DNA of 64,000 bases from the IMG/VR virus record IMGVR_UViG_3300028048_000115, positions 18,061 through 82,060 of that record; one strand, 5' to 3'. The DNA is from a virus. Lineage: Duplodnaviria > Heunggongvirae > Uroviricota > Caudoviricetes. The translations under genes were made by a program, and so were the position numbers. The notes beneath the pieces were generated by a model. It had not been told where the DNA came from, did no database searches, and saw only the letters and a list, made by a program, of their open reading frames with translations. This document shows positions 9,149 through 63,200 of this stretch, piece after piece (position 1 is the stretch's first letter; each line of letters opens with the position of its first letter).

Positions 9149-9370
9149 ATGGTTGATGTAGAGAAAACAATAACACTAACTGATGAAGAATTAAAAGAAC
9201 TAAAAGGATTATTGAACGTAGCAATTTCGGATTGTTTAGATGGTTCAATCATTGCACCCTTTGAGGATCTACGAAAAAAAGAAATTAAGCAAGCCAATGA
9301 ATATAAAAAACTTTACAACAAAATTTTTGACGCTGATAAAGTCATTGAACCTATAGACACGGAGGAATAA
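9149..9370 (+). CDS. hypothetical protein
   Basis: ORF track. Confidence 0.3.
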   Translation: MVDVEKTITLTDEELKELKGLLNVAISDCLDGSIIAPFEDLRKKEIKQANEYKKLYNKIFDADKVIEPIDTEE

Positions 9371-10944: not shown

Positions 10945-11100
10945 TTCATTTTTTGGATCCATTTAAAATTTTTGTATTTCCTATATATATAGAATATATA
11001 AATTTTTGTGTTTACACTTAATTTTTTGGATCCATTTAAAATTTTTTTGGATCCATTTAAAATTTTTTTGGATCCATTAAAAAATTATTGTGTCTGTACA
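10945..11100. repeat. array of the TTTTTTGGATCCATTTAAAATTTTT direct repeat (4 copies) plus an AT palindrome tatatatagaatatata
   Basis: read directly. Confidence 0.8.
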
Positions 11101-11123
11101 ATATAATTATTCAGTCTTTTTGA

Positions 11124-11192
11124 AAAGTCTTTATAAATCAATAACTTAGTAAGAGAACTATTTTTGTTAAGTCTTTGATTTATAAAGACTTT
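11124..11192. repeat. structured element: 18-bp perfect inverted repeat AAAGTCTTTATAAATCAA ... TTGATTTATAAAGACTTT around an approximately 33-nt loop
   Basis: read directly; further copies at about 17213-17285, 31365-31440, 38573-38635 and 54833-54900. Confidence 0.75.
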
Positions 11193-11210
11193 TTAAAAAA
11201 GCATTAAAAA

Positions 11211-13075: not shown

Positions 13076-13420
13076 ATGATGGGTGATGTGTTAATTATTT
13101 TGATTGCATTTACGGTTTGTATGACTATCATAATTAACTGTTCAAGATAGAGGTTAAATGATGGGTGTTGTAGCAATTATATTTACAACTTAAACAACCA
13201 GAAAGATATGATCCTAAAGGATCATATATGAATGGTTGTACTATAAATAAGAATAATATAGGTATGGGACGTACCAAATTTAAGCATGTGGAGATTGATA
13301 AAAAGATCTCTGAAGCAATTTAGGGATCTAATCAATCAAAGAAGCATGAAGCATCTACCCTTTAGGGTAGATGTAGTTCACATTTATAGTCTTTATGTCT
13401 GTTCAAGATGAGGATTAAAA

Positions 13421-14376: not shown

Positions 14377-14389
14377 TTTTATATAAACT

Positions 14390-14630
14390 CAATGGATAAA
14401 AATATGAGTCTTTAGGCTCATACAGACATTGACATTCCAATAATTATATTATATAATATTTATATAAAAACAAATTTTAAAATTCGGTGAGTCTGTTGTT
14501 CACAACAAATCTCACCAAACTCTTGGGAAGGACCTCTCGGAGTATAAAGCCTTCAAACATTTGTGTTACACACAGTTTGAACTACTTTCTAAATGGAAGC
14601 ATCAACCCTTTAAGGTTGATGTAGGTCACA
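14390..14630 (+). mobile_element. miniature IS200/IS605-type element (left end plus right end of the TnpB IS at 57511-58966, no tnpB); carries a TnpB omega-RNA-like right-end sequence
   Basis: left end caatggataaaaatatgagtctttaggctcat and right end ...ggaagcatcaaccctttaaggttgatgtaggtcaca both match the full element. Confidence 0.7.
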
Positions 14631-14669
14631 TTATAAAAATATTATAATTAAAAGAGAGGGAATAAGACA

Positions 14670-14867
14670 ATGAGAAAGCTTGAGATTAGAGATTATTATA
14701 CAGGCAAAGCTAAGTACGTTAAGTTAAACAGCAAAGCTTGTGACTGTTCAATAGATTACAGAGTCGAGGACGACAAAATAATCATAAGGGACCACTATTC
14801 ACAAAAAATCCTTCAGAGAGTGAAGGCTCCAGAATATTCATTTCAAATGAATATCGTTGATTTTTAA
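14670..14867 (+). CDS. hypothetical protein
   Basis: ORF track. Confidence 0.3.
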   Translation: MRKLEIRDYYTGKAKYVKLNSKACDCSIDYRVEDDKIIIRDHYSQKILQRVKAPEYSFQMNIVDF

Positions 14868-14887
14868 TTTTTAGAGGTGTTAAGAAG

Positions 14888-16051
14888 ATGAGAAATTTAG
14901 CATACGCCGTAACTGTTTCTAAGGTAGAAGACATCAAGGGTAAAGATAAAATTGGTCTTTTACATTTTAAGGAAAATGCCTATACTGTTATTGGATCCAA
15001 AAATATTAAACCAGGTGATGTTGTTTGTTATTTTGAGGTGGATAGTATTCTTCCAGAAATTCCAGTATTTGAATTTTTAAGAAAGCGCTGTTATAATGAA
15101 CGAGTCCATGGTTTTTTAATCGGAAAAATGAAGCTAGGTAAAGTTTACTCATTCGGATTGGTAATGACATCTGAAGAGTTGCAGACAAAGATTGAAGCTG
15201 GAAAGGTTTACGATAAAGTTTTCAATGTTCGTAAGGACGAGGACCGTTATGACGCTTCACCAAAACAGTTTGACGGTACCAAGTTAGTACGTGTTCGTAG
15301 TTTCCCAGTTGATTTAATTCCAAAGAGTGATGAGGACAATTTATTGAATGATCCATCAAAACTTGATGAGATTAAAGGCAAAAAGGTGTACACTTCAATT
15401 AAACTTGAAGGAAAGTCAATGACTGTATTTTTGGATAAAAGGGAAATTCTATCTGACGTTAAGACATACCTCGGTGAAGTCGGAAAAGAGATTAGTAATA
15501 TTTTTAAACCTATTATCCATAGAAATTTTGCACAGGTTCCTAAAAAGATTTCAAAGTGTTTCAAAAATATTAAGGCGCTAAAGAACCCTATCCATTTCGG
15601 AAAAAAACTTGCAGTATTTGGAAGAAATGTGGAAGGTGACAATGAAATGTATAATTTCTGTCAGCGACTTGTACCTTTCTTTGAGAAGCATCCTGACTTA
15701 ATTTTACAGGGTGAGTACACTTCTCCTAAAGTCCAAAAAGGAATTTACAAAGATGGTGAAAATTTCAATATCTATAGAGTTCGTAATGGCCTAAGAGATT
15801 TAAACCCTGATGAATATTGCGAAATGATTAATAATGCAGGAATTAAAGGTTTAAGGACAGTTCAGTACATTGATGTTGACCTTAACAAGTACGACCTCGA
15901 AAGTTTACAGGAATTTGTTGATAATTTAAAATTTAAAGAAGGTAGCTATCTTTTAGATCATAAGGGTAATAAGAACCACGAAGGCATTGTTATTAGAACT
16001 GATGATATGAAAATTCATTTTAAAGTAAAAAGCAGGGAATACAAATTATAA
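14888..16051 (+). CDS. putative ATP-dependent RNA ligase-like nucleotidyltransferase
   Basis: candidate motif I KLEG, motif IV EGIVIR, motif V KVK; N-terminal OB-like segment. Confidence 0.4.
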   Translation: MRNLAYAVTVSKVEDIKGKDKIGLLHFKENAYTVIGSKNIKPGDVVCYFEVDSILPEIPVFEFLRKRCYNERVHGFLIGKMKLGKVYSFGLVMTSEELQTKIEAGKVYDKVFNVRKDEDRYDASPKQFDGTKLVRVRSFPVDLIPKSDEDNLLNDPSKLDEIKGKKVYTSIKLEGKSMTVFLDKREILSDVKTYLGEVGKEISNIFKPIIHRNFAQVPKKISKCFKNIKALKNPIHFGKKLAVFGRNVEGDNEMYNFCQRLVPFFEKHPDLILQGEYTSPKVQKGIYKDGENFNIYRVRNGLRDLNPDEYCEMINNAGIKGLRTVQYIDVDLNKYDLESLQEFVDNLKFKEGSYLLDHKGNKNHEGIVIRTDDMKIHFKVKSREYKL

Positions 16052-16487: not shown

Positions 16488-16524
16488 GAAAAAAGCACTC
16501 ATTTTTGAGTGCTTTTTTATTTCA

Positions 16525-16690
16525 TTTTAAATTTTTTGGATCCATTTAAATTTTTTGGATCCATTTAAAAATTTTGTGTTTACACAATGCTTTTAAATTT
16601 CTATATATTGAATATATAAATTTTTTTGTGTTTACACTTAAATTTTTTGGATCCATTTAAAATTTTTGTGTTTTCACAATATCTAACATT
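16525..16690. repeat. array of the GGATCCATTTAAAA repeat (3 copies) plus an AT palindrome and tgtgtttacac motifs
   Basis: read directly. Confidence 0.75.
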
Positions 16691-16736
16691 TCCAAACCAA
16701 TTAATAAAATTTATGATAGATTAAAAGGAGAATAAA

Positions 16737-16991
16737 ATGAATTTTGGTGAAGCATTAAATGCAGTTAAGAATGGTAAAAAGGCTAAGCGTTCAGGTTGGA
16801 ATGGTAAAGACCAATTCATTGAACTTGCTACTAATGTATCTTTTGTTAGACCAAACGGTGAAGTTGTAAATGTAAATCATAAAGATATGGGCAACAAAGC
16901 TATTGCATTCCACGGCACAAGTGGTATCCAGTTAGGCTGGTTAGCATCCCAATCTGATATGTTATCTGAAGACTGGATAATTCTTGAATAG
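16737..16991 (+). CDS. DUF2829-family small protein (Tad2-like candidate anti-Thoeris sponge)
   Basis: MNFGEALNAVKNGKKAKRSGWNGK...WLASQSDMLSEDW pattern typical of DUF2829. Confidence 0.45.
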   Translation: MNFGEALNAVKNGKKAKRSGWNGKDQFIELATNVSFVRPNGEVVNVNHKDMGNKAIAFHGTSGIQLGWLASQSDMLSEDWIILE

Positions 16992-17329
16992 GAATTAAAT
17001 AATGCGAACAACAAGAATTTATGATGCGGTTTCACGTTCAATTTATAAAGATAAAATATTTAGATATCCGAATTCACGGTCAGATGCGTTAGTTATTTTT
17101 TATAAAACATTATTTAATACATTGGTTAATCCACAGAAGTCAATAGACCTTAAAATGTATCTGAAGTCTTGATTAAAGCCAATAAAAAAGCACTCAAAAA
17201 TGAGTGCTTAAATAAAAAGTCTTTACAAATCAAAGACTTAACTAAAATAGATCTTTAACTAAGTTATTGATTTATAAAGACTTTTAAAAAACGTTAAAAA
17301 ATACTGAATAATTATTGTGTAAACACAAA

Positions 17330-17425
17330 AATTTTAAATGGATCCAAAAAAAAATTTATATATATTCTATATAGATACATTGTGAAAACACAAAAATTTT
17401 AAATGGATCCAAAAAATTTTAAACA
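17330..17425. repeat. GGATCCATTTAAAA repeat copies in reverse orientation plus an AT palindrome
   Basis: read directly. Confidence 0.7.
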
Positions 17426-22306: not shown

Positions 22307-22444
22307 TATGAAAATGTTATTGGTCTTCAGGCCAATAGCATTTAAACATTTTGAAATGTGATCTAAATCACAATAAAAAATAGTTGTTTTCTTATTATAA
22401 AGATATTATAATTATTATGTAAGTTGATTTTGAGAGGAAATAAA

Positions 22445-22951
22445 ATGTGCGAATTATTTGACAAAAAAGATGTTAAAAGTTGGACTACTTGTTCTGAAGT
22501 AAGAATAAGCGAAGAGGGATATTTTGGTTATAACTTACTAGATTTAGAGTACCGCATTAAAAATGAAAACCCTAAAAAATTGTCTGGAATAAATGAAATT
22601 TCAGCTCATACATTTAAAGCTGAGGGTGCATGGTATCCATTCTTTTTACCATTAGACAGAGTTAAGAAACAAGACTCAAAATATAGACCGTTAAAAACTT
22701 TTGATGAGCTTTTTAATTTCTTAATGCCGGATAGCGATGAGGATGATACCGACAGAAAAGCAGAATTGCTTTTAGGAAAAGTATATCAATTAAGGCATAA
22801 ATCAACAGGTAATGTGAGTTATAGATCTTTTTACTCTATTAACCTAACCGAGAATGGTATTTTAATAAACGGTTTGGATTTAGAATATATTTTTGAAATA
22901 TTTGAAATTAAAAAAGATGGTAAATGGGTTCCATTTGGAATTGCGAATTAA
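22445..22951 (+). CDS. paralog family member 1 (C-terminal W[VI]PFG motif family)
   Basis: shared motifs GYFG, YRP.KT..ELF.F, C-terminal WVPFGI. Confidence 0.5.
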   Translation: MCELFDKKDVKSWTTCSEVRISEEGYFGYNLLDLEYRIKNENPKKLSGINEISAHTFKAEGAWYPFFLPLDRVKKQDSKYRPLKTFDELFNFLMPDSDEDDTDRKAELLLGKVYQLRHKSTGNVSYRSFYSINLTENGILINGLDLEYIFEIFEIKKDGKWVPFGIAN

Positions 22952-22968
22952 AAAGTTAGGATAACAAA

Positions 22969-23517
22969 ATGAAAATTTGTGATGTAAAAACTTGGGCCAA
23001 CAAAGATGATGTTAAGGTAGGCGATGAAGGATATTTTTCCAACGACATTTGTTTTTTAGAAAAAATTATAGAAAGAGATTTTAAACGCAAAATTAAGCAT
23101 ATAGATCCATTTAGAGGTAACTGTTTTGTTGCCGAAATAGATGAAAACGAACCTAGTCGCTGTTCTGCATATTCAGGTTATTCTTTCTTTATGCCTGCGG
23201 ATAAAGTTAGAAAGTCAATGTACAGACCGATAAAAACTTTTGAGGAGCTTTTTAATTTTTTTGTACCAAATTTTGATGAGGAATACTTTGGTTTAGGTGA
23301 CGGTGAATATGATACATATAAAAAGACAGAGCTCCTACTAGGACTTACAATTGCACTCAAACGAAAAGCAGGCAATTTTATTGAGGTGTCATTTATTCAG
23401 AATATTTTATTTCTTGACAAAGATTTATGGCTAAATGGCAGACTTTTAAAAGACCTTTTTATGGACTATGAAATTCAGATGAACGGTAAATGGGTTCCAT
23501 TTGGAATTAAGGATTAA
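22969..23517 (+). CDS. paralog family member 2
   Basis: same motifs. Confidence 0.5.
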   Translation: MKICDVKTWANKDDVKVGDEGYFSNDICFLEKIIERDFKRKIKHIDPFRGNCFVAEIDENEPSRCSAYSGYSFFMPADKVRKSMYRPIKTFEELFNFFVPNFDEEYFGLGDGEYDTYKKTELLLGLTIALKRKAGNFIEVSFIQNILFLDKDLWLNGRLLKDLFMDYEIQMNGKWVPFGIKD

Positions 23518-23519
23518 AG

Positions 23520-24056
23520 ATGAAAATTAACAATGGTGATATTTTTAGTTGGTCCAATTGTAATGATGTAAAAATTGGACAGATGGGATATTTTGCATTT
23601 GACATTGAAGAATTAGACAGTAAAGTTGGAAATACGGAACCAATGGAACTTGTTGATATTGATAGTAAATCAGGGACTCCATTCCAAGCTTTCGAAGATG
23701 AAAAATTAGAATATTATCCATTCTTTTTACCTTTTGAAAAGGTAGAAAATTACAGACCTTTTAAGAATTTATTAGAATTTTACAAGGTTGCTTTAAATCC
23801 TAATTATGAAGAGCCACTTATTGATGATGAAGAGGGTTTAAAAGCAATTATAGAATACCTTATCGTTGGACAAGTAATTAGAATTAAGCGAATTGGTAGT
23901 GATGAATACATTCCAAGATCTCATCTGATTACGTGTGCTAGCTATAAGGATAACAGTATTTACCTTGACGATTATTGCACTCTTAAATATCTACTTGACC
24001 ACTACAAATTATACAAAAATGGTGAGTGGGTTCCATTTGGTGTAGAAAAGGAATAA
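23520..24056 (+). CDS. paralog family member 3
   Basis: same motifs. Confidence 0.5.
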   Translation: MKINNGDIFSWSNCNDVKIGQMGYFAFDIEELDSKVGNTEPMELVDIDSKSGTPFQAFEDEKLEYYPFFLPFEKVENYRPFKNLLEFYKVALNPNYEEPLIDDEEGLKAIIEYLIVGQVIRIKRIGSDEYIPRSHLITCASYKDNSIYLDDYCTLKYLLDHYKLYKNGEWVPFGVEKE

Positions 24057-24057
24057 A

Positions 24058-24576
24058 ATGGATAAGATTTTTAATAAAGAAGATGTGTTCACTAACATAA
24101 CTGCTGAAAACGCTAAAGTAGGCACAGTAGGATTTTTTGGTTATGGTCTGCAAGATTTAATTACTGCTGTGAAAGAGAATGATTTTCACGTATTATCAGA
24201 TGTTGACCAAACAGCACATTGTTTTAAGGCAAGTGACAACTGTTGGTATATCTTATTTTTACCATTATCCAAAGTCCTTAAACAACGTAAATACAGACCT
24301 TTTAAAAGTATTAGTGAACTGTTTGGTTTTCTAATGCCAGAGAATGAAGAAACTGATAACTTAAAAATGGTTGAAAAATTACTAGGCAAAAAAATTATTC
24401 TGAAGAACCCCGAAAATGGTCAATTCAAGGCTATGTTTATTCAAAATATTGAGTTCAATAACGATAGCAGTGATATAAACTTAAATTGCTTGTCTTTGGA
24501 ATATTTATTTAATATATACAAAGTTCTAATAAATGATTACTGGATTCCTTTTGGAGTAGAAATAAAAGATGAGTAA
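24058..24576 (+). CDS. paralog family member 4
   Basis: same motifs. Confidence 0.5.
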   Translation: MDKIFNKEDVFTNITAENAKVGTVGFFGYGLQDLITAVKENDFHVLSDVDQTAHCFKASDNCWYILFLPLSKVLKQRKYRPFKSISELFGFLMPENEETDNLKMVEKLLGKKIILKNPENGQFKAMFIQNIEFNNDSSDINLNCLSLEYLFNIYKVLINDYWIPFGVEIKDE

Positions 24577-24769
24577 AAGTTTATGCCAGCAACTAAAAGA
24601 ACAAGGCTTAAAATTCAATGATGGTATGATTTCAGAACGGTTTGAAGAAATGTTATATACCATTGAAGACTTACATCTATATGGATATATCACGGACGCT
24701 GAACACAAGAGGATTAGACAGAGATTTTTTAAGGATTTAGAAAATTTTACTTCCAAAATTGAGGAATAA
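24569..24769 (+). CDS. small hypothetical protein
   Basis: ORF track. Confidence 0.3.
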   Translation: MSKSLCQQLKEQGLKFNDGMISERFEEMLYTIEDLHLYGYITDAEHKRIRQRFFKDLENFTSKIEE

Positions 24770-25001
24770 AATGCAGTATCCAAACCCAAATCATTATGAT
24801 TGTCCTAATGATTACTATAATGCGGTAGACATATACTTTGAACAGTTAAGCATAGTTATGAAATTGAAGAACCAAAGTATGCCTATGACAAAAATAAAAA
24901 TGATTATTCAGAACGCTTCAAATACGGTAAATACAATAAATTTTTATCCTAGCAAAAAGAAGGCTTATATGTCCTTATTAAGGATAAATAAGAAAAGTTA
25001 A
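24759..25001 (+). CDS. small hypothetical protein
   Basis: ORF track. Confidence 0.3.
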   Translation: MRNKMQYPNPNHYDCPNDYYNAVDIYFEQLSIVMKLKNQSMPMTKIKMIIQNASNTVNTINFYPSKKKAYMSLLRINKKS

Positions 25002-25038
25002 GGAATTAACCTAAATACAAATCAAAAAGGAAATAAAA

Positions 25039-25548
25039 ATGGATTTATTTGATAAAGCAGATGTTCTTACTTGCATAACAGCAGATAAAGCTGTGGTAGG
25101 AACAAAGGGATATTTTGGAGATTGCTTACAGGGGTTAATTACCGCTGTGGAACATAATAATGTTCAAGCATTATCAGCTGTTTATAAAACTGAGGTTTAT
25201 TGTTTTAAGAATGAACACGGACAGAATTATAATTGCTTTTTACCAGCGAATAAAGTTAGAAAGACGACATACAGACCAATCAAGAATATTAAAGAACTCT
25301 TTGCTTTTATGATGGCTGATGGCAATGAATATTCAGAGGAAAAAATGGTAGATATCTTAATGGGTCAGCGTTATGTACTCAAAAGCAAACTCAATAATGT
25401 CATAAAATATCATACTGTAAATTCCTTATATATAGAGTCCGACGGAATGGTAACTCTTGATTACTTAGATTTAGATGATTTATTTGATTATTACGAGTTT
25501 AAGAAGGGTGATAAATTTGTGCCATTTGCTATTGAAGAAAGGAAATAG
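25039..25548 (+). CDS. paralog family member 5
   Basis: same motifs (C-terminal FVPFAI). Confidence 0.5.
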   Translation: MDLFDKADVLTCITADKAVVGTKGYFGDCLQGLITAVEHNNVQALSAVYKTEVYCFKNEHGQNYNCFLPANKVRKTTYRPIKNIKELFAFMMADGNEYSEEKMVDILMGQRYVLKSKLNNVIKYHTVNSLYIESDGMVTLDYLDLDDLFDYYEFKKGDKFVPFAIEERK

Positions 25549-25630
25549 TATTTTTGTGATCTAGGTCACACAATTATTTTTTATTCTGTTTTATAATATA
25601 TTTGTAAGAAAGATGAGGGAGAATAGAAAA

Positions 25631-26173
25631 ATGAAACTATTTAATAAAGAAGATGTTTTAACAGGCATAACTGCTGATAAAGCTGTTGTGGGAATGAAGG
25701 GTTTTGTCGGAGATAGTTTATCTGCGTTAAATGACAAGATAAGGCGAAATGATGTGAGCACCCTAACAGACATTGTTGGGAACTGTGCTTATTGCTTTGA
25801 AGTTGATCATAAAGAACAGCTTTATGCTTTCTTTTTGCCTGGCGAAAGAGTTATGAAACCAACATACCGACCAATAGCAACGGTTGATGAACTCTTTGAT
25901 TTTATACTTCCTGAATTTGAATTAGTAGGCGATGAATACGGAAAGCAGGTTGACTCATATAGAAAGGCTGAAATTCTGTTAGGCAAAAAATTAGTGTTAA
26001 AGGATTTAATCAATAACCGAACAAAAGTTACACTCATTCAAGACGTTGATTTTAGCAATGATGATGCTGATAGCAGTAATATATATTTAAATAACTTGTC
26101 ACTAGAATATTTATTTAACAACTTCAAAATTCAAATTAACGGTGAATTTGTACCATTTGGAATTGATGAATAA
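25631..26173 (+). CDS. paralog family member 6
   Basis: same motifs; own promoter module upstream. Confidence 0.5.
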   Translation: MKLFNKEDVLTGITADKAVVGMKGFVGDSLSALNDKIRRNDVSTLTDIVGNCAYCFEVDHKEQLYAFFLPGERVMKPTYRPIATVDELFDFILPEFELVGDEYGKQVDSYRKAEILLGKKLVLKDLINNRTKVTLIQDVDFSNDDADSSNIYLNNLSLEYLFNNFKIQINGEFVPFGIDE

Positions 26174-30589: not shown

Positions 30590-30900
30590 TAATATTATTT
30601 TAAATTTCTATATATATAGAATATATAAATTTTTTGTGTTTACACAATTATTTTTTGGATCCATTTAAAATTTTTTGGTTCACACAATTATTTTTTGGAT
30701 CCATTTAAAATTTTTGTGTTCACACAATTATTTTTTTGGATCCATTTAAAATTCTTTTAAATTTCTATATATAGAATATATAAATTTTTTGTGTTTACAC
30801 AATTATTTTTTGGATCCATTTAAAATTTTTGTGTTCACACAATTATTTTTTTTGGATCCATTTAAAATTTTTTGGTTCCATTTAAAATTTTTTGGAGTCT
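30590..30900. repeat. largest array of the roughly 40-bp direct repeat unit (gtgtt[ct]acacaattattttttggatccatttaaaattttt), at least 6 copies, plus AT palindromes
   Basis: read directly. Confidence 0.85.
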
Positions 30901-30977
30901 AAATTTAATTAAAAATGTTTTTTTTTTAAAATATAAATAAATTAAAAATGTTTTTATAAAATATAAATAAATCAAAA

Positions 30978-31313: not shown

Positions 31314-31553
31314 TTTTAAAGCTCCTTAATTAAGGAGCTATTTTTGTCTATAAATTATTCAGTCTTTTTAAAAAGTCTTTATAAATCAATAACTTAGTAA
31401 GAGATATATTTTTGTTAAGTCTTTGATTTATAAAGACTTTTTTATTTTGTGAAAAAATTGTTAAAAAATATTTGCTTTTCTTATATACACATATTATAAT
31501 TATTGACATATTAATTTTATGGTGCTTGAGAAATATTTTAAAGGAGCGTTTAA

Positions 31554-32486: not shown

Positions 32487-32580
32487 GAACTCTCGGAGTG
32501 TGACCTACATCTACCTAAAGGATAGATGCTTCCATTTAGAACTAATTCCAGTTCAAACATTTAGGACTTGTGTTACACTA
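32487..32580 (-). mobile_element. partial copy of the IS right end (hairpin plus variable segment) in minus orientation
   Basis: tgtgacctacatctacctaaaggatagatgcttccatttagaac... matches the right end at 57511. Confidence 0.55.
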
Positions 32581-34432: not shown

Positions 34433-35695
34433 ATGTTATTTAAATATTTAATGGAAGCAGGTCTTAACATCAATGGCAAAACATATCCAAAATTTGGAAA
34501 TGCTTTAATTTGTGCGGGTGGTGCTGGTTGTTTTGACGAAAACACACTCGTGAAAACTAATGAAGGGTACAAACGAATAAAAGACATTAAGACTGGCGAT
34601 CTTGTGGAAACGCTTAACGAAAATACAAACGTTTCCGAATTTAAGGAAGTTGAAGAATTAAAGGCATTTGAAAGCACAAAACCTATGATTAAGTTAACTT
34701 TTGACAATGGCGAAGAAGTAATCTGTACTGAAGACCACGAATTTTTAGTTGATGGCAAATGGGTAATGGCAAAAGATTTAAAAATTAAAAAAGAATATAT
34801 CAAAAATTATTCAAAAACAGTTTATGACCTTAAAATCAAAGACAACCATAATTACAAAATTACAGAGTCTGATTTAATAGTTCATAATTCAGGTAAGGGT
34901 TTTGTTCTCAATAATGTGTGTTTATTCCAGGGAAGAACTTTTGACGTTGATAACATCAAAAAGAACCTAATCAAAATGAAAGATACCACCGTAATTTATA
35001 AGAAGTATCTTGAATGGAGAAAACAAAATCCTTCAGCACCAGAAACCATCAATGACCTTAAACTTGAGGAGCCTGAGCACGTTTCTTTACTTCACAAATT
35101 CTCATCTGAAATGGGTTATGGTGACGCTGTAATTAAAACTTTTATCACAAATGCTTCATTATTACCTGCTGATAGAAAACCAAATGTAATTTTTGACTGC
35201 ACTCTAAAATCATTTTCAGATTTGACGGATTTTAAGAAAATGCTTGACTTAGGTGGTTATGACCCTAAAAATATTCATTTAGTTTGGGTGCTAAACAAAT
35301 TTGAAGTTGCTTTGAAACAAAATGATGAAAGAGAACGAAAGGTTTCCATAAATGTTATGTTCAAGACTCACGAGGGTGTTTCCGAAAATCTTAGCAATAT
35401 CCTTAAAGATTTAAACTCTATTCGAAACATTGTTGATGGCGATATTTGGATTGTTCCAAATCAAACTAAAGTTGATAATGACTCGGTTGTTTCATTAAGA
35501 AAAACCTTTAGTGGTAAAGAAGTAAAAAGCGTAAGGTACGTAAAAGAATATTCCGCTTATCAAGTAAAGAAATCTGGTAAAGCACCAAAATCTTACGATG
35601 AAATCTGTTCCGATGTGATTGATAATCTCCATAAGTCTAAGATTATTGATAAAATCAAGGATTACGTTCCAGTTTCAACAAAAGATAATTGGTAA
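34433..35695 (+). CDS. P-loop NTPase or nucleotide-kinase-like protein interrupted by a mini-intein in the Walker A motif
   Basis: extein junction ICAGGAG|CFDEN...IVHN|SGKGF reconstitutes GGAGSGKG; Hint domain blocks present. Confidence 0.6.
   Translation: MLFKYLMEAGLNINGKTYPKFGNALICAGGAGCFDENTLVKTNEGYKRIKDIKTGDLVETLNENTNVSEFKEVEELKAFESTKPMIKLTFDNGEEVICTEDHEFLVDGKWVMAKDLKIKKEYIKNYSKTVYDLKIKDNHNYKITESDLIVHNSGKGFVLNNVCLFQGRTFDVDNIKKNLIKMKDTTVIYKKYLEWRKQNPSAPETINDLKLEEPEHVSLLHKFSSEMGYGDAVIKTFITNASLLPADRKPNVIFDCTLKSFSDLTDFKKMLDLGGYDPKNIHLVWVLNKFEVALKQNDERERKVSINVMFKTHEGVSENLSNILKDLNSIRNIVDGDIWIVPNQTKVDNDSVVSLRKTFSGKEVKSVRYVKEYSAYQVKKSGKAPKSYDEICSDVIDNLHKSKIIDKIKDYVPVSTKDNW
34529..34888 (+). other. 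mini-intein (about 120 aa, no endonuclease domain)
   Basis: begins with Cys, ends in HN, next residue Ser; TGD.V, EDHEF and VHNS blocks. Confidence 0.6.
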
Positions 35696-37469: not shown

Positions 37470-37485
37470 GGTTTATATATAAAAT

Positions 37486-37728
37486 CAATGGATAAAAATA
37501 TGAGCCTAAAGAGTCAATATATAGATATTGAATTTCTATTAAATATATTATATAATATTTATATAAAAACAAATTTTAAAATTCGGTGAGACTGTTGTTT
37601 ACAACAAATCTCACCAAACTCTTGGGAAGGACCTCTCGGAGTATAAAGCCTTCAAACATTTGTGTTACACACAGTTTGAACTACTTTCTAAATGGAAGTA
37701 TCTACCCTTTAGGTTGATGTAGGTCATA
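37486..37728 (+). mobile_element. miniature IS200/IS605-type element (left end plus right end, no tnpB), copy 2
   Basis: near-identical to 14390-14630. Confidence 0.7.
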
Positions 37729-38521: not shown

Positions 38522-38851
38522 TTTTGAAATTTGAGCACTCATTTTTGGGTGCTTTTATGTGAATTTTTTAAAAGTCTTTATAAATCAATAACTTAGTTTT
38601 TAGTTAAGTCTTTGATTTGTAAAGACTTTTTTATTTAAGTACCAAAAATAGTTGTTTTTTTTTAATATAAAGATTTATAATTAATATGTGAGGAGAAAGA
38701 AAATGAAAGTTTTACGTTTTAACATACTTGGTACTCAACTGTGAAGGTCGCCCAAATGGTACAAATTGCCAACAAAGAATTAAATAGAATAAAATGGTTT
38801 TTAAGAAACTTGAAAATCCAAATAATGCTAATTTAAGCGAGGTTCGATAAA

Positions 38852-40104: not shown

Positions 40105-40527
40105 ATGTTATCATACTTATCTTTGATGTACGCATTAATGACCGTACACCCGTCTGAAATATCGTTTATTGAGGACTTTCAAAACTACACTAAATTGAGG
40201 TCCACTTCTTACATTGCTACTGCGTACCACATCAATTCCTGTGGTAAATCTAAATCCCATCCTAGTTATGGAATAACTGCAAACGGCACCAATGTAAGAG
40301 GAATTGAAGATTGGACTAAAAGATACATAGCAGTAGATCCTAACCTTATCAAATTAGGTTCAAAAGTGTTTATTGAATTTCCTGACGATTATGCTTATAT
40401 GTCAGGTGTTTATACTGCTGTTGATACTGGTGGAAAAATTAAGAACAGACACATTGATGTGTTTTTTGGAACCAAACACGAAGACTCTATGAAATTTGGC
40501 GTTCAGAATGTAAAAATTTATATGTGA
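40105..40527 (+). CDS. 3D-domain (MltA-like) peptidoglycan-hydrolase-like protein
   Basis: YTAVDTGGKIKNRHIDVFFG motif. Confidence 0.5.
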   Translation: MLSYLSLMYALMTVHPSEISFIEDFQNYTKLRSTSYIATAYHINSCGKSKSHPSYGITANGTNVRGIEDWTKRYIAVDPNLIKLGSKVFIEFPDDYAYMSGVYTAVDTGGKIKNRHIDVFFGTKHEDSMKFGVQNVKIYM

Positions 40528-40528
40528 A

Positions 40529-40668
40529 ATATGAACCTTTAGGCTCATATACAGAAACTCTTGGGAAGGACCTCTCGGAGTATAAAGCCTTCAAACATTT
40601 GTGTTACACACAGTTTGAACTACTTTCTAAATGGAAGTATCTACCCTTTAGGGTTGATGTAGGTCACT
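40529..40668 (+). mobile_element. truncated miniature element (left-end hairpin fused to the right end), copy 3
   Basis: atatgaacctttaggctcatatac is followed directly by the right-end sequence. Confidence 0.6.
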
Positions 40669-48451: not shown

Positions 48452-49768
48452 ATGATAACTTTAGAAAACTTAAAAGATTATTTTGACTTGCAAGAACAAA
48501 ATAATCCTATTGTTATTGCCAGCTTAACAGATTTATTGGGGGTTATTCAGATGGCAGGAGATACATATACTAAGGCTGAAATTGACGCTAAAATTCAAGA
48601 AATCAAGGACACCATTAGTTCAGGTATAAAATTAAAAGATGTAGTTTACGGTTTCCGTATTCGTGTAGAGCAAGACAGCTCTTGTAGTGTTTCTTACTTA
48701 GAGGATGCCATTGGTGCCACACCAGCATTTATGAATTTCTCAAACGGCTGCTTTAATTACGGTTCTTGGAAAAAGGCATTCTTTATGCCTAGACCTTGTA
48801 TGTTGAAGTTTGATGGTACCGTCGATTATTACTTGGATCCTGACGATTTTGAATATCGTTCAGACGGAGTAACTCCTTCAGACGTTGCAAATGAGAATTA
48901 CGAAGGAAATGCGATGATAGAGTGGAATAAAATTTATTATAAGATTGTTCCACTTGAAGGTCGTGATGGTTGTGCTGATATTTTCATTTCAGACCACAAA
49001 GCAGACAACGACTATGTGTGCTATTCATTTATTGATAACAATGGAAATGAGAAAGACCATTTCTACACTCCAATTTACAATGGTACCGTTATCAACGGAA
49101 AATTAAGAAGTTTAAGTGCTAAAACTCATACTGTTAATGTAGCTGAAAATGTTTTGTGCAATTATGCAGAGGCTAACGGTGACGGTTGGAGTGCAGAAAC
49201 ATACGTGGATAGAGTTCTGATTAATTGCTTATTAGTTTTAATGGGTAAGTCTCTAAATTCACAGAAAATCTACGGTTACGGACATTACACAGGTGGTTCA
49301 AGTGCTTCAAGTAATTACAAGACAGGTCTGTTAAACCGCAGAGGTATGTTCTGGGGTAGCACAGGCAACACTGGTGTCAAAGTCTTTGGTATGGAAAATT
49401 ACTATGGTGAAGTTTGGAGACCAAATCTTGGTGTTATGAACCTCAAGGGTAAGTATTACATCAAGTTACACGGTCCTTATAATACCACAGGTGAAGGATA
49501 CACAGAAGCAGGCAATGTTCCTAATGCGAGCGCCAGTTACATCACTAAGATGAATTTTGATAACAACCTTATGTTACCTATTGCCGTTGGCGGGTCAGAG
49601 AACACATACTATGCTGACGGTATGTGGTCTAATAACTCCCAGGACGATATGCTCTTCAGTGGCGGTAGCTCCGGCGTTGGTTTGGTTGTTGGTGCCTTTA
49701 CGTTTACCGTAGCCGATGTGGCATCGATTTCCATCTGGGCCTACGGCGCCTCTTGCTCCTACAGGTAG
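48452..49768 (+). CDS. DGR target protein (variable protein; probably a tail fiber or receptor-binding protein) with the VR at its C-terminus
   Basis: 3' end matches the TR with A-specific mismatches; TATAAATA late box upstream. Confidence 0.75.
   Translation: MITLENLKDYFDLQEQNNPIVIASLTDLLGVIQMAGDTYTKAEIDAKIQEIKDTISSGIKLKDVVYGFRIRVEQDSSCSVSYLEDAIGATPAFMNFSNGCFNYGSWKKAFFMPRPCMLKFDGTVDYYLDPDDFEYRSDGVTPSDVANENYEGNAMIEWNKIYYKIVPLEGRDGCADIFISDHKADNDYVCYSFIDNNGNEKDHFYTPIYNGTVINGKLRSLSAKTHTVNVAENVLCNYAEANGDGWSAETYVDRVLINCLLVLMGKSLNSQKIYGYGHYTGGSSASSNYKTGLLNRRGMFWGSTGNTGVKVFGMENYYGEVWRPNLGVMNLKGKYYIKLHGPYNTTGEGYTEAGNVPNASASYITKMNFDNNLMLPIAVGGSENTYYADGMWSNNSQDDMLFSGGSSGVGLVVGAFTFTVADVASISIWAYGASCSYR
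49661..49760 (+). repeat. DGR variable repeat (VR)
   Basis: about 100 bp matching the reverse complement of 51009-51108; all about 15 mismatches fall at TR adenines. Confidence 0.8.
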
Positions 49769-49866
49769 TTCATTTCTGCTTAAAGAGCACTCAAAAGAGT
49801 GCTCTTTTTTGAAAATGTTTCCCCGATGAAAACGTAATTTTCGGAAATTTAAAGGTTCCAATTTTT

Positions 49867-50895
49867 TCAGGTTCCAAATCTCACTACTGTATTTAATAAA
49901 ATTTGTTCCTTTTTCTTTGAATTTTTTGCTTTATCGTGGTTAGAAATAATTTTTCGGCACTTATTAAAATTGAAATTCAAGTGCTCCTTGGAATATTCAT
50001 AAGTGTCTGTGATTTTTAAAAATCCCCAATATGGAAGTGTTTGACGAGCATCAAAAACCGTCATTCGCTTTTTCTTTTTGACCTTTCTGACCTTTCTCCT
50101 GATTTTGCTTAATAATCTCTTTCTAAGAGTTGTCCTATTGTCATAAAATCTGAAACCAAGGTAATCGGCAAAATCACCATTACCGAAACAACCAATTTTG
50201 AAATTTGGTTTTATTTCTAGTTTGAGATCTGCTAAATACATTTTAATAAGTTCAAATTTTACAAGCAAATCTTCCTTTGTTTTTTCAATGAAAAGCATAT
50301 CGTCCATGTATCTACAATAAAAAGGTATCCTCAATACCTCTTTTACCCAGTGGTCGAATTTGCTTAGATAAAAATTTGCGTACCACGGACTCGTATAAAA
50401 TCCAATAGGCAAACCTGGACTGTATGAGTCTATAATTTTAAATAATTCCTGTTTAAATTCAAAGTCAGCAATTATTTTTAATTTTTCTTTTAATATATTA
50501 TGATCGATATTTTCAAAAAAGTGTTTAATGTCAATCTGCAAGAAGTAATAATCGCCGTGTTTCCTGATAAATCCCTCAACCGCACTTTTAGCAGAATGTA
50601 AACCTCTACCAGATATTGACGAACAAATCAACCTATAAAAACTTTTTCTAAAAATAGGTTTAAGAATATTCATTTGAGCGTGCTGAACTACCAAGTCGGT
50701 GGGACTAGGTACCACAATAGTACGTTTCTTGTGAGACGTGTGGTCAAAGAAAGTCACAGGTTTAGCAACTGATGGAACATAGTTCCTAAGCATTTCTGTT
50801 GTGAAAATTTTTGGAGCTCTTTTAGCAGTATTAACTGCAATAGCAATGTTATCTTCGGAAAGATACATTCCCATAAGATGTTTATAAGATTTCAT
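49867..50895 (-). CDS. DGR reverse transcriptase
   Basis: GLPIGFYTSPWYANFYL (DGR-type motif 4) and YMDD box. Confidence 0.85.
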   Translation of the reverse strand: MKSYKHLMGMYLSEDNIAIAVNTAKRAPKIFTTEMLRNYVPSVAKPVTFFDHTSHKKRTIVVPSPTDLVVQHAQMNILKPIFRKSFYRLICSSISGRGLHSAKSAVEGFIRKHGDYYFLQIDIKHFFENIDHNILKEKLKIIADFEFKQELFKIIDSYSPGLPIGFYTSPWYANFYLSKFDHWVKEVLRIPFYCRYMDDMLFIEKTKEDLLVKFELIKMYLADLKLEIKPNFKIGCFGNGDFADYLGFRFYDNRTTLRKRLLSKIRRKVRKVKKKKRMTVFDARQTLPYWGFLKITDTYEYSKEHLNFNFNKCRKIISNHDKAKNSKKKEQILLNTVVRFGT

Positions 50896-51008
50896 TTTCT
50901 CCCTTTGTAAGGTTCTAATTAAATACTACTGACAGCTCAAGGTTCTTACGCTTGATGCGGGAAAATTTCGGGTCCAAAAAACCACAAGTAATCTTAGAAT
51001 ATTATTTC

Positions 51009-51108: not shown

Positions 51109-51264
51109 GTTACCGCCGGGGACCGGCAAAGGTACCAATATATTCACTCTAAGATTCAAAACTATTTATTACTTATGGAATTTAAATACAAATTTTTAAA
51201 ATATGTTGACTATTTTATAAAAAGTTCTATAATGTAAATGTAACAACGAAATGAGAGAAAAAAA

Positions 51265-57211: not shown

Positions 57212-57212
57212 G

Positions 57213-57515
57213 ATGAAATCTTCGGAGTTTAAACCTCTTGATGATTTTCTTTTAATTAAGCCGGACATTGCAAAGAATGAGGAAGTCACAAATGGTGGTA
57301 TCATTCTTAACTATCAGAAATCTGTTTTAATGAGACCTTGCTCTGGAACTGTTCTGGCAGCCGGCGAAAATTGTGAGAATATCGTTGCGGGGGATTATAT
57401 TGTATTCCCTGATACCGATGGAATTGAGGTTAAATTTGAAGACTCTGATAGGTCTGTTGATTATCCGCAGTTTATGCTTTTAAGGTATAAATCTGTGATT
57501 GGAAAGAAATTGTGA
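57213..57515 (+). CDS. GroES-like co-chaperonin (T4 gp31-like)
   Basis: FKPLDDFLLIKP...TNGGIIL...GTVLAAGEN...GDYIVF GroES-fold pattern. Confidence 0.55.
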   Translation: MKSSEFKPLDDFLLIKPDIAKNEEVTNGGIILNYQKSVLMRPCSGTVLAAGENCENIVAGDYIVFPDTDGIEVKFEDSDRSVDYPQFMLLRYKSVIGKKL

Positions 57516-58966
57516 CCTACATCTACCCTAAAGGGTAGATGCTTCCATTTAGAACTACAGAAGTTGTAATTCTAGTTCAGACATCTGGGACTTGTGCGTA
57601 GCACAGAAATCCAGATGTTTGAAGGCTTTATACTCCGAGAGGTCCTTCCCAAGAGTTTGGTGAGATTTGTTGTAAACAACAGTCTCACCGAATTTTAAAA
57701 TATTAATTGCTGAATTATAATCTCTATCAATAATATTACCACAGTTACACTTTAGTGTACGGTTGGTAACATCTTTCATTTCTGGATGCCTTTCTCCACA
57801 TTTAGAACAGACCTGAGAACTTGGATAATATTTGTCTGTATAGACAATTATGTCTCCAAACTTCTCAGCATTTTCTTCTAACTTTTTGAGAAAATAACTC
57901 CATTGTAGCAAACTTATAGACTTTCCATGATTTCCACCTTTAGTGGAAGTTTTGGAATCCTTATAAGAAGTATGTTCAGCCATTTCTTTAAGGTCTAAGT
58001 TCTCAATAACTATCAGCTCATTGTGTTTACACAAATTTCTTGATAACTTGTTGATATAATCAACTTGGATATTATGAGCTCTTTCAAATAATTTGTTACG
58101 CTTCATCGTGATACGATGGACTTTAACGGAGACCTTACGCTTTTTCTTAGATTTGTTTCTCATCTTTGAAATAGCAGTATTTAAAAAATCAATTTTATTT
58201 TGGAGTAATTCCATCTTAGATCTCTTTGTTAAGAACTCTGGTGCATTTGCACCAAAACTATCAACGAAGAAATCTTTTAAAGAAAAATCTAAACCAATAT
58301 GACCATTTTCTACACGGTCTTCGTAAACCTTGTCGACCTCGACAAGTAACGATACTTTGTAAACTCCAGTTTTGGTTCTTTTAATAGTTCCTGACTTAAT
58401 TTTGCCGTTTAAAATTCAGGTTTAATATTTTTACAGTTGAAATGAACATTTCCTACCTTTGGAATTTTCACGTATGACTTTGACTTACAGTCAGGATTAT
58501 ACGAAAGTTTTAAATTATTACTATAAAAATAATCTGAATGAGCCTTTTTAGATCTGAAACTAACTAATCCAACTTTTTTGCCTTTTGCTCTTTTTGACCT
58601 ATTGATTTTATTGGTCTGTTTAAATTTATAAAGAACTTGTTGGATAGACCAAGAATAAGAACCTAAAAGAAATTCGTACTCCGTACGCAATTCTTTATAA
58701 TCCTTATAATTTGGTGCTCTATTTTCTTTAAGTGCTTTTAAATATTCTTCTACATATTTGTTATAGATAAATCTACAATCATTTAAATGTTTATCTTAAA
58801 GCAGTTTTTGAGCACTATCAGGCTTTAGTTCAAGAACTAAACCTCTGATAATCTTGGTCATTCAAATTCCTCTATTTAAAATTTGTTTTATATAAATATT
58901 ATATAATATAATTATTAGAATGTCAATGTCTGTATATAGTCTAAAGGTTCATATTTTTATTCATTG
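57511..58966 (-). mobile_element. IS200/IS605-family TnpB-only element (left end at 58966, right end at 57511), with tnpB disrupted
   Basis: ends match the miniature copies; the right end overlaps the TGA of the upstream gene. Confidence 0.7.
57555..58860 (-). pseudogene. tnpB: tnpB (RuvC-I IGLDFS, zinc finger CSKCG...CNCG, RuvC-III RDYNSAINI) split over at least 3 frames
   Basis: ORF fragments 58409-58690 and 57555-58214 plus an out-of-frame RuvC-I segment. Confidence 0.6.
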
Positions 58967-59153
58967 GGTTATATAATTTATATTTAATAAAAAATCAAGA
59001 ATTTTGATTGCACATCAAACATAAAAACCCTCAATGAAGAGGGTTGTTATTTGTACCATTTTAGTGAGTTCTTTTAGATTGAACTCTTTATTCCTCTATT
59101 AAGAGTTTTTATAATGAATTTAAAAGAGCGATACAAAGTATCGCTCAATTTAG

Positions 59154-62997: not shown

Positions 62998-63200
62998 TTT
63001 TCCATCTCCAATTACGATCTGTTTAACGTGTCTAATTATCCTTAAACACGTTATTAAAAAATATCTTTTTATTGTCATTTATTTATTTTAACACAGTTTT
63101 ATTAAAAGGTCTAATGTATTTATTGTTTTTTGAGTCCTTTTAAAATATAAATATTTCTTAAAACTAAAAATTTATAAATATTTAAAAAAGGAGTTTTTTA

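What the first reader, a model, noticed from the sequence alone, without database searches (positions are those of the whole stretch)
14390..14630. Miniature end-only derivatives of the TnpB IS scattered through the phage genome
Seen directly: 14390-14630 and 37486-37728 are near-identical roughly 240-bp elements made of the IS left end fused to its right end, with no tnpB. They include the identical internal segment catttgtgttacacacagtttgaactactttctaaatggaag. 40529-40668 is a shorter version, a left-end hairpin joined directly to the right end. Partial right-end pieces sit at 32487-32580 (opposite strand, different variable segment) and 13348-13385 (hairpin catctaccctttagggtagatgtagttcac). 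These behave like PATE/MITE or REP-like elements derived from IS200/IS605 ends. If transcribed, the full copies carry a guide-less or re-targetable omega-RNA-like scaffold. All sit in intergenic spots just after stop codons.
Basis: seen in the sequence. Interest (0 to 1): 0.7.

Follow-up and report, generated by a model that had tools for sequence, protein, structure and literature searches.

The report
Gene-less mini transposons in a phage
A T4-like phage carries three ~140-240 bp gene-less copies of a TnpB insertion sequence, each keeping only the two ends (a promoter plus the guide-RNA scaffold); this is a known type of non-autonomous element (PATE), here in a less usual, viral setting.

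Summary
Window 14389-14629, 37485-37727 and 40527-40667 are internal-deletion derivatives of a tnpB-only IS200/IS605-type element. The resident full copy lies on the minus strand at 57512-58967, and its tnpB is a pseudogene (one nonsense codon, one frameshift).

The two ~240-bp copies join the left end (hairpin plus a consensus sigma-70 promoter) to the last ~155 nt of the right end. That right-end segment is a multi-stem structure supported by compensatory changes, and it lies where TnpB guide (omega) RNAs are encoded.

Three results support mobility:
- The minis share one deletion junction and other derived characters, yet sit at different sites.
- A second phage contig has minis with a different junction, so minis arose at least twice.
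- Three metagenome contigs carry a full IS at window ~63087, where the window has the empty site.

No TnpA transposase was found in the window or in 258 kb of related loci, so mobilisation must be in trans.

Best reading: these are PATE-like non-autonomous IS200/IS605 elements that double as stand-alone promoter-plus-omegaRNA genes. Each is presumably used by a TnpB supplied in trans to home or retain its own site. Expression and activity are untested.

PATEs that encode omegaRNAs, and tnpB-only IS copies in T4-like phages, are both already described. I rate this a new member of a known kind, of moderate interest.

The parts
14389..14629 (+). mini1: 241-bp gene-less element, made of the IS left end (14389-14473) fused to the right end (14474-14629) across the microhomology ATTTTAAA
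   Evidence: The left-end hairpin TATGAGTCTTTAGGCTCATA is intact, and so is the right-end hairpin CATCAACCCTTTAAGGTTGATG. The element ends in GGTCAC.
14429..14457 (+). Consensus sigma-70-type promoter inside the left end of mini1 (TTGACA-17-TATAAT, 12/12). In the full IS it precedes tnpB; in the mini it sits ~17 nt upstream of the retained right-end (omegaRNA) segment at 14474, ~28 nt upstream of its first stem
   Evidence: The same promoter is in the full IS. mini2 has TTGAAT-17-TATAAT.
14474..14629 (+). omegaRNA-like scaffold of mini1: stem H1, an invariant 43-nt core containing stem H2, a variable stem, and the terminal hairpin
   Evidence: RNA fold of 14474-14650 (scaffold plus 21 nt of flank): -47.2 kcal/mol, z=-4.5. 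Covariation in 11 of 25 pairs.
14630..14649 (+). Putative guide of mini1, the flank immediately 3' of the right end (ATTATAAAAATATTATAATT). Inferred, not shown.
   Evidence: Position follows from the known TnpB/omegaRNA architecture. The only perfect match in the window is to itself.
37485..37727 (+). mini2: 243-bp element with the same junction as mini1. The tip of its left-end hairpin is inverted (CCTAAAGAG), the right-end hairpin has one mismatch, and the element ends in GGTCAT.
40527..40667 (+). mini3: ~140-bp element in which the left-end hairpin is fused directly to the omegaRNA core. It has no promoter, no stem H1, and the 5'-most ~15 nt of the left end are missing.
   Evidence: A 98%-identical relative, L004, also carries it, with a decaying right-end hairpin.
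57512..58967 (-). Full-length tnpB-only IS, the nearest resident parent. Its tnpB is a pseudogene (TAA at codon 22; -1 frameshift near 58410). Its right end supplies the TGA stop codon of the Cpn10-like gene 57195-57515.
   Evidence: The intact orthologue in L034 is 450 aa and 96% identical.
32499..32572 (-). 5'-truncated right-end remnant: the variable stem, terminal hairpin and GGTCAC
13348..13385 (+). Right-end terminal hairpin remnant ending in GTTCAC, the end motif seen in the more distant copies of the 155-kb phages
9116..9149 (+). Micro-remnant: the 5' part of the left end runs into a sequence resembling the 3' arm of the right-end hairpin (…CTTTATGGTTGATGTAG, extending a few nt beyond the BLAST match to ~9160). 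The ATG of ORF 9149-9370 lies inside it.
   Evidence: (family D19)
63087..63091 (+). Empty site. Contigs L021, L011 and L023 from other samples carry a full IS of this family exactly here.

Best explanation
The elements are PATE-like, non-autonomous derivatives of a phage-resident, tnpB-only IS200/IS605-family insertion sequence.

Shown:
- A microhomology-mediated internal deletion (ATTTTAAA) removed the ribosome-binding site and ~1.17 kb of tnpB.
- What remains is the left end (TnpA-type subterminal hairpin plus a consensus sigma-70 promoter) joined to the last ~155 nt of the right end (a structured omegaRNA scaffold plus the right subterminal hairpin).
- This 240-bp product then spread to at least two further sites. 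mini3 is a secondary deletion.

Inferred:
- Transposition used a Y1 TnpA supplied in trans, with insertion 3' of a TAAA[C/A/T] motif.
- Each mini is transcribed from its own left-end promoter (mini3 by read-through) into an omegaRNA whose guide is the 16-20 nt flank after GGTCAC.
- A TnpB made elsewhere loads this RNA. The source would be an intact IS copy in the same phage, as co-occurs in contig IMGVR_UViG_3300028048_000136, or a co-infecting phage.
- That TnpB cuts the TAM-plus-flank 'empty' allele, and recombinational repair copies the mini back. This amounts to RNA-guided homing or retention at about one sixth of the DNA cost of a full IS.

Several copies (mini2, mini3 and the remnants) show decay of the hairpins and are probably no longer mobile.
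For: - End-to-end alignment with the IS termini.
- Parent is a TnpB: Pfam HTH_OrfB_IS605, OrfB_IS605 and Cas12f1-like_TNB. The intact 96% orthologue aligns to ISDra2 TnpB over residues 7-390 at E~4e-33, with GLDFS, IENL, DRD and the zinc finger conserved.
- IS200/IS605 anatomy: an asymmetric pair of subterminal hairpins with the same CTTTAGG loop, the left one 14 nt inside the left boundary and the right one 8 nt inside the right boundary. There are no terminal inverted repeats. TAAA[C/A/T] precedes the left end at 9 of 10 distinct left-end junctions (the resident full IS has ATAAC), and 18 of 20 distinct right ends stop in G[G/T]TCA[C/T].
- Mobility of the family: L021 is window 63054-63091, then a 1430-bp IS, then window 63087-63229. 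L011 and L023 confirm each junction, and the window is the empty allele.
- Minis spread as minis: mini1 and mini2 share the junction and an extra A in the left end, and all three minis share the 6-nt right-end deletion GAACTA^CTTTC, yet their flanks differ.
- Independent origin: minis L003/L029, L025a and L025b in a second phage use a different junction (AATATTT).
- omegaRNA: fold z=-4.5. In the alignment 97.8% of cells are paired, against 29-49% in the slid controls; 44 cells have changes on both sides, against 13 in shuffles.
- A 43-nt core is identical in all 14 right-end variants that share the GGACCTCTC core.
- mini1 versus mini2 differ at 2 of 90 positions in the 5' part of the scaffold, against 12 of 85 in the left end.
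- Promoter scores 12/12.
- An intact TnpB and minis co-occur in one contig.
Against: - No transcription or cleavage data exist.
- The only tnpB of this family in the window is a pseudogene. Several copies elsewhere are also broken (L021, L033, L035, L047), so the family may simply be decaying.
- No TnpA was found in any window ORF of 95 aa or more, by tblastn in the window, or in 258 kb of related loci.
- No empty site was recovered for any mini. All 5 near-identical contigs carry mini1.
- The window minis lack a small stem (AGAA..TTCT) that covaries strongly in relatives. mini2's left-end hairpin is disrupted, and mini3 lacks both the promoter and stem H1.
- Both deletion junctions lie in AT-rich microhomology. 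Recurrence of the 'promoter+omegaRNA' layout can therefore be mechanistic rather than selected.
- The covariation rests on few independent lineages. For the terminal hairpin it is equally explained by a DNA hairpin recognised by TnpA.
Confidence: 0.7

Rival explanations
1. Inert relics. The minis are IS-derived but are now dead DNA: not transcribed into a used RNA, no longer mobile, and kept only because small intergenic insertions are nearly neutral in a ~155-kb phage.
For: tnpB is a pseudogene in the window and in several relatives. mini2's left-end hairpin tip is inverted, mini3 is truncated, and L004's right-end hairpin is decaying. Further solo-end remnants lie at 9116, 13348 and 32499. 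No TnpA was found.
Against: The 43-nt core is invariant across 14 variants. The 5' part of the scaffold is six-fold less diverged than the left end between mini1 and mini2, although the minis carry no coding constraint. The promoter is retained at consensus. An intact TnpB co-occurs with minis in a sister phage.
Confidence: 0.3
2. Independent in-situ decay. Each mini arose where it sits, from a full-length IS, by the same microhomology deletion. No mini ever transposed.
For: The junction lies in microhomology that could recur. Contig L017 appears to join a tnpB 3' end to mini1's right end and flank.
Against: mini1 and mini2 share an extra A in the left end, and all three minis share a 6-nt right-end deletion; neither is in the resident full IS. 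L017 starts at the same k-mer as L020 from the same sample and then shares ~100 identical nt with it, so it is most likely assembly-graph sharing and not a real full copy.
Confidence: 0.1
3. Exapted mobile promoters or regulatory modules. The phage keeps the minis because the left-end promoter (and the right-end hairpin) drives or modulates the downstream genes 14670-16051 and 37799 onward, not because of any RNA-guided function.
For: mini1 and mini2 point at downstream plus-strand genes and carry a consensus or near-consensus promoter. The insertion sites lie within or next to the phage's own repeated promoter-like motifs.
Against: Native promoter-like -10/-35 motifs remain downstream of each mini. 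mini3 has no promoter. This reading does not explain conservation of the scaffold.
Confidence: 0.1
4. Assembly artefact: repeats wrongly placed by a metagenome assembler.
For: Many short contigs break inside the minis. One ENA contig (L012) leaves the window's gene order right after mini2.
Against: mini1 with both flanks is in an independent ENA contig (L015). mini2 with its left flank is in L012 (and the first ~20 nt of its left end in L013/L014), and mini3 with both flanks in L004. These come from different samples and assemblers.
Confidence: 0.02

Closest known systems
PATEs (palindrome-associated transposable elements), the gene-less derivatives of IS200/IS605. First named in Haloquadratum (PMC3119063); PATE-like elements encoding omegaRNAs were noted in Geobacillus stearothermophilus (Meers et al. 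2023, PMC10055086).
   Same: They consist of the left end plus the right end only, with subterminal hairpins, no gene, multiple dispersed copies, dependence on trans factors, and a right end that carries the omegaRNA.
   Different: Here they sit in a T4-like phage rather than a bacterial or archaeal chromosome. A consensus promoter is fused directly to the scaffold. They arose twice, by different junctions, in two phages. No TnpA was detected nearby, and the resident tnpB is dead.
tnpB-only IS200/IS605 elements in T4-like phages: ISCaje1-3 of Campylobacter phages CP220/CPt10 (the same phages also carry the tnpA+tnpB element ISCaje4) (PMC2853527)
   Same: Several tnpB-only copies per virulent, T4-like phage genome, sitting at different sites in sister phages.
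   Different: Gene-less minis were not reported for ISCaje. The TnpB here has no relative above 60% identity in 50,697 phage records; the best listed hits are ~30%.
ISDra2 / IS608 TnpB-omegaRNA (OMEGA) systems
   Same: TnpB fold and catalytic residues. The guide-RNA scaffold overlaps the tnpB 3' end and the right end. The TAM lies 5' of the left end. The architecture fits homing and retention logic.
   Different: ~25-30% protein identity. No Rfam family matches the scaffold. The TAM, guide length and activity have not been measured.
Classical MITEs and REP/BIME elements
   Same: Short, non-coding, repeated and intergenic.
   Different: The ends are not inverted repeats of each other, there is no target-site duplication, and there is no RAYT gene. 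The ends are asymmetric hairpins of the IS200/IS605 type.

Membership tests
IS200/IS605 family (tnpB-only, IS1341-like group) | Subterminal imperfect hairpins at both ends, and no terminal inverted repeats | tested here: met
   Left-end hairpin TATGAGYCTTTAGGCTCATA and right-end hairpin CATCTACCCTTTAGGGTAGATG. The right-end hairpin keeps pairing through 7 pairs with changes on both sides.
IS200/IS605 family (tnpB-only, IS1341-like group) | Insertion 3' of a short conserved motif, without target-site duplication | tested here: inconclusive
   TAAA[C/A/T] precedes the left end at 9 of 10 distinct junctions; the resident full IS has ATAAC. The filled-versus-empty comparison at 63087 shows no duplication, but the empty allele differs by a 6-nt indel and 4 substitutions right at the site, so the exact target cannot be read off.
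IS200/IS605 family (tnpB-only, IS1341-like group) | Y1 (HUH) TnpA transposase available, in cis or in trans | tested here: not met
   No Y1_Tnp or recombinase domain in any window ORF of 95 aa or more. tblastn with three TnpA sequences found nothing in the window, in 258 kb of related loci, or in L046-48.
IS200/IS605 family (tnpB-only, IS1341-like group) | Presence/absence polymorphism with precise ends, as evidence of transposition | tested here: met
   Shown for the full-length IS at window 63087-63091 (L021, L011, L023). Not shown for the minis.
PATE (gene-less IS200/IS605 derivative) | Left end plus right end of a cognate IS, no protein-coding gene, several dispersed copies | tested here: met
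   The only ORFs inside the minis are 45-49-aa leftovers of the TnpB C-terminal frame.
TnpB / omegaRNA (OMEGA) system | TnpB with RuvC D-E-D and a zinc finger | tested here: met
   Met in the intact 96% orthologue L034 and in the reconstructed window protein. The window gene itself is disrupted.
TnpB / omegaRNA (OMEGA) system | Structured guide-RNA scaffold encoded across the tnpB 3' end and the right end | tested here: met
   Fold z=-4.5. Covariation in H2, in the base of the variable stem and in the terminal hairpin. That it functions as RNA is inferred.
TnpB / omegaRNA (OMEGA) system | Guide taken from the 3' flank; TAM-dependent DNA cleavage | not testable with these tools
   Needs RNA-seq and a cleavage or interference assay. 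Computationally, each putative guide matches only its own flank in the window.
Classical MITE | Terminal inverted repeats and a target-site duplication | tested here: not met
   The left and right ends are not reverse complements of each other, and no duplicated flank is seen at any of the copies.
IStron (group I intron fused to an IS200/IS605 or IS607 element) | Group I intron ribozyme at the 5' end | tested here: not met
   No Rfam family reaches its threshold anywhere in the window. Only chance-level hits appear in the right end.

The most novel reading that the evidence does not exclude
The minis are not junk. They form a distributed set of stand-alone guide-RNA genes: a single phage-encoded TnpB, loaded with omegaRNAs from several promoter-bearing minis, cuts the corresponding mini-less alleles of co-infecting relatives at several loci at once. 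This would be RNA-guided marker exclusion, the counterpart of the many protein homing endonucleases of T-even phages. It would also be a natural example of guide genes physically uncoupled from their nuclease, a step on the path from TnpB to CRISPR-Cas12.

Two observations fit this reading without proving it: the empty allele at 63087 has lost the TAAAT motif and carries 4 mismatches in the 16-nt target, and sequence divergence is concentrated next to that site.
Probability: 0.2. Interest if true: 0.75.

Novelty: new member of a known kind. Interest (0 to 1): 0.42.

Why it matters
If the minis are expressed and used, they show that a virus can keep the cheap part of an RNA-guided homing system (a ~240-bp promoter plus guide scaffold) at several loci while sharing one nuclease gene. 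That bears on how TnpB elements persist without a transposase, on competition between related phages, and on how guide genes became separated from nucleases on the way to CRISPR.

Practically, these dispersed ~91-98% identical repeats break metagenome assemblies (many contigs end inside them) and may drive rearrangements.

If they are only decaying relics, the finding is routine annotation: 'IS200/IS605 PATE-like remnants'.

Tried and rejected
- Rfam at gathering threshold on the whole window, and at E-value threshold on the right end: no omegaRNA, IS605-orfB or group I intron family.
- Megablast of 8 kb against 50,697 phage records: no match.
- Empty sites for the minis:
  - Exact-protein look-ups of flanking genes gave only contigs that carry the mini or break inside it.
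  - Protein-based scans of IMG/VR gave only distant relatives with different neighbours (L006, L045) or the filled relative L004/L044.
- L017, which looks like 'tnpB 3' end + mini1': rejected as evidence for a full IS at the mini1 site. It starts at the same k-mer as L020 from the same sample and shares ~100 identical nt with it.
- L012, whose flank after mini2 differs from the window: I cannot tell recombination from misassembly.
- Host identification:
  - The exact omegaRNA core is absent from 185,579 species-representative genomes.
  - The only close TnpB hits there (a 'Bacilli bacterium' fecal MAG) sit on short, 27%-GC contigs. The one whose flank I checked (L047) encodes a family-B DNA polymerase with an intein, i.e. 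looks like mis-binned phage DNA.
- The second TnpB-like gene of the window (1939-3171): unrelated to the minis (22% identity over 130 aa, E=0.05).
- Guide self-targeting: each putative guide matches only its own flank. The single 1-mismatch hit (22394) has no TAM-like motif and is a repeated promoter motif.
- A predicted long-range helix GCCU/AGGU closing the scaffold is invariant in the close family and is not kept in the distant copies, so I do not claim it.

Full report
**1. What is in the sequence**

The window is 31.9% G+C. It encodes a T4-like replication and nucleotide-metabolism module:
- family-B DNA polymerase
- gp44-like clamp loader
- gp32
- endonuclease VII
- dUTPase
- RNA and DNA ligases
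- NrdD with an intein
- a Cpn10/gp31-like protein

Relatives lie on 154-158-kb viral contigs.

A repeat scan and a BLAST of the candidate IS against the window confirm every coordinate in the finding. The alignment of the four main copies shows that 14389-14629 and 37485-37727 consist of two parts. The first ~85-100 nt is the left end (LE) of an element that lies on the minus strand at 57512-58967. It is joined to the last ~155 nt of that element's right end (RE). The third copy, 40527-40667, has only the LE hairpin, fused to the RE core. E-values of 1e-22 to 1e-42 exclude chance.

Remnants lie at 32499-32572 (minus strand), at 13348-13385 and, additionally, at 9116-9149.

**2. The parent element**

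The 1.46-kb element encodes a TnpB. Pfam finds HTH_OrfB_IS605, OrfB_IS605 and Cas12f1-like_TNB. The gene is broken in the window by a TAA at codon 22 and a -1 frameshift near 58410.

An intact 450-aa orthologue (96% identity) exists in IMG/VR contig 3300028048_000136 (L034). It aligns to the ISDra2 TnpB structures over residues 7-390 (E~4e-33), with the RuvC Asp/Glu/Asp motifs and the zinc finger conserved.

The ends have IS200/IS605 anatomy:
- Two subterminal hairpins share the same CTTTAGG loop and are placed asymmetrically, 14 nt inside the LE boundary and 8 nt inside the RE boundary.
- There are no terminal inverted repeats.
- TAAA[C/A/T] precedes the LE at 9 of 10 distinct LE junctions; the resident full IS has ATAAC.
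- 18 of 20 distinct RE variants stop in G[G/T]TCA[C/T].

The LE contains a 12/12 sigma-70 consensus promoter, TTGACA-17-TATAAT.

**3. Origin of the minis**

In the window minis the LE sequence …ATATAAAA(A)CAAATTTTAAA runs straight into ATTCGGTGAG… of the RE. This is a deletion between two copies of ATTTTAAA. It removes the ribosome-binding site and ~1.17 kb of tnpB.

mini1 and mini2 share this junction and an extra A in the LE. All three minis share a 6-nt deletion in the RE (GAACTA^CTTTC). Their flanks, however, are unrelated. They therefore descend from one deleted copy that then moved, rather than from three separate decays. mini3 is a further deletion.

In the second phage contig, three minis (L003/L029, L025a, L025b) share a different junction (TATAAT|ATTTTAAAATTCGG, microhomology AATATTT). 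That contig also carries an intact TnpB. Gene-less promoter-plus-RE derivatives thus arose at least twice and multiplied each time.

Both junctions lie in AT-rich microhomology, so recurrence of this layout may be mechanistic rather than selected.

**4. Mobility of the family**

- Contig L021 consists of window 63054-63091, then a 1430-bp IS (90% identical to the resident one), then window 63087-63229. L011 and L023, from two other samples, confirm the LE and RE junctions. The window therefore holds the empty allele.
- The filled allele reads …TTTATTTAAAT|TCAATGG…GGTCAC|TTTATCACACTTAGATT…. The window reads …TTTATTT TAACACAGTTTTATT….
- So the TAAAT motif is missing from the window, and 4 of the first 16 flank positions differ.
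- Flank identity is 92% over the first 145 nt, against 98.6% over 915 nt. This pattern fits a cleavage-resistant allele or co-conversion, but it is equally ordinary intergenic divergence.
- I found no empty site for any mini. All near-identical contigs carry them or break inside them.

**5. The retained right end as an omegaRNA**

- The RNA fold of 14474-14650 has z=-4.5.
- Across 15 RE variants from close and 75-80%-distant copies, 97.8% of cells pair, against 29-49% when partners are slid. Eleven of 25 pairs show changes on both sides. Covariation occurs in stem H2, in the base of the variable stem and in the terminal hairpin.
- A further stem (AGAATTAA/TTAATTCT, AGAATCAG/CTGATTCT, ACAGTCAG/CTGATTGT) covaries by eye. 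It is the stem shortened by the 6-nt deletion in the window minis.
- A 43-nt core is identical in all 14 close variants.
- Between mini1 and mini2 the 5' part of the scaffold differs at 2 of 90 positions, whereas the LE differs at 12 of 85, although no coding constraint remains.
- No Rfam family matches.
- By the established architecture of TnpB systems, the guide is the 16-20 nt after the RE end. The minis are therefore not guide-less. Each carries a guide for its own insertion site, and in the window each such guide matches only itself.

**6. What is missing**

- No TnpA was found:
  - No Y1 or serine-recombinase domain in any window ORF of 95 aa or more.
  - No tblastn hit in the window, in 258 kb of related loci, or in L046-48.
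- The omegaRNA core is absent from 185,579 representative bacterial genomes.
- The only close TnpB hits there sit on short, low-GC contigs of a fecal MAG, and the one flank I checked looks phage-derived.
- Many tnpB copies are pseudogenes.
- mini2's LE hairpin tip is inverted. mini3 lacks the promoter and stem H1.

**7. Interpretation**

- Identity as PATE-like, non-autonomous IS200/IS605 derivatives is secure.
- Function is inference:
  - The LE promoter would transcribe the scaffold plus flank.
  - A TnpB supplied in trans would use it to cut the mini-less allele.
  - Recombination would then restore or spread the mini.
  - New sites would require a TnpA in trans.
- The main rival is that the minis are now inert relics.
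- Meers et al. already noted PATE-like elements and that PATEs often encode omegaRNAs needing TnpB in trans (PMC10055086).
- T4-like Campylobacter phages with several tnpB-only ISs are on record (PMC2853527), and TnpB homologues occur in 377 of 50,697 phage records.
- What is new here is the setting and the detail: a phage-restricted lineage, a promoter-scaffold fusion that arose twice, and a polymorphic site. The kind of element is not new.

**8. Verdict**

- This is a new member of a known kind, of moderate interest (0.42).
- The most novel reading not excluded is a multi-locus, trans-acting guide set for RNA-guided marker exclusion between phages. I give it a probability of about 0.2.

Noticed in passing
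window 1939-3171 (+) and 4082-4987 (-): A second, unrelated TnpB-like gene (410 aa). The RuvC-II glutamate appears to be replaced (…TIVIGRNKEW…) and there is no CxxC zinc finger. Its best solved-structure match is a 'nuclease-deactivated Cas12f'. A flagellin gene (Flagellin_N/C) lies two genes away. This looks like a TldR/fliC-type RNA-guided repressor module, here in a low-GC T4-like phage.
   Followed up: partly
window 48452-51159 (RT 49867-50895 minus strand; repeats 49661-49760 and 51018-51117): Diversity-generating retroelement. A reverse transcriptase sits next to a 100-nt repeat pair in which all 13 mismatches are adenines in the copy near the RT (the template repeat). The variable copy forms the 3' end of gene 48452-49768.
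   Followed up: partly
window 16521-17209, compared with L016: In metagenome contig L016 the segment 16660-17209, which carries a Tad2-like (anti-Thoeris-like) gene at 16737-16991, is inverted relative to the window. The segment lies between palindromic terminator-like repeats (AAAAAGCACTC…GAGTGCTTTTTT).
   Followed up: no
window 10948-11096, 16511-16696, 17313-17422, 30611-30921; also 11106-11209, 17198-17301, 31354-31457, 38543-38646, 54814-54917: Intergenic arrays of ~20-nt motifs (TTTTTTGGATCCATTTAAAA and TTTTGTGTTTACACAA) and a ~104-nt repeat present five times in both orientations. The ~104-nt repeat is also present in the sister phage contigs. Function unknown; possibly regulatory sites or another small mobile element.
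   Followed up: no
L012 (ENA contig k141_365980), compared with window 37727 onward: This 55.7-kb contig is collinear with window 14332-37726. Immediately after mini2 it continues into different genes (205-aa, 327-aa, 247-aa, gp15-like) and has a different, longer variable stem in the right end. This is either recombination between IS copies or misassembly at the repeat.
   Followed up: partly
window 57513-57515: The TGA stop codon of the Cpn10/gp31-like gene (57195-57515) is supplied by the last bases of the IS right end (GGTCAC read on the other strand). The insertion therefore defines the present C-terminus of this protein.
   Followed up: no
window 22424-26173: A tandem array of about seven paralogous ~170-185-aa genes with no Pfam match (direct-repeat families D5, D9, D10, D12, D14).
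   Followed up: no
window 59154-62414 (-), 34433-35695 (+), 6015-7625 (+): NrdD interrupted by an intein with an extra inserted region; a free-standing Hint/intein-like 420-aa protein; and a family-B DNA polymerase ORF that stops after the exonuclease and early polymerase motifs, so it may be split. Together with the IS copies, the genome is dense in selfish elements.
   Followed up: no
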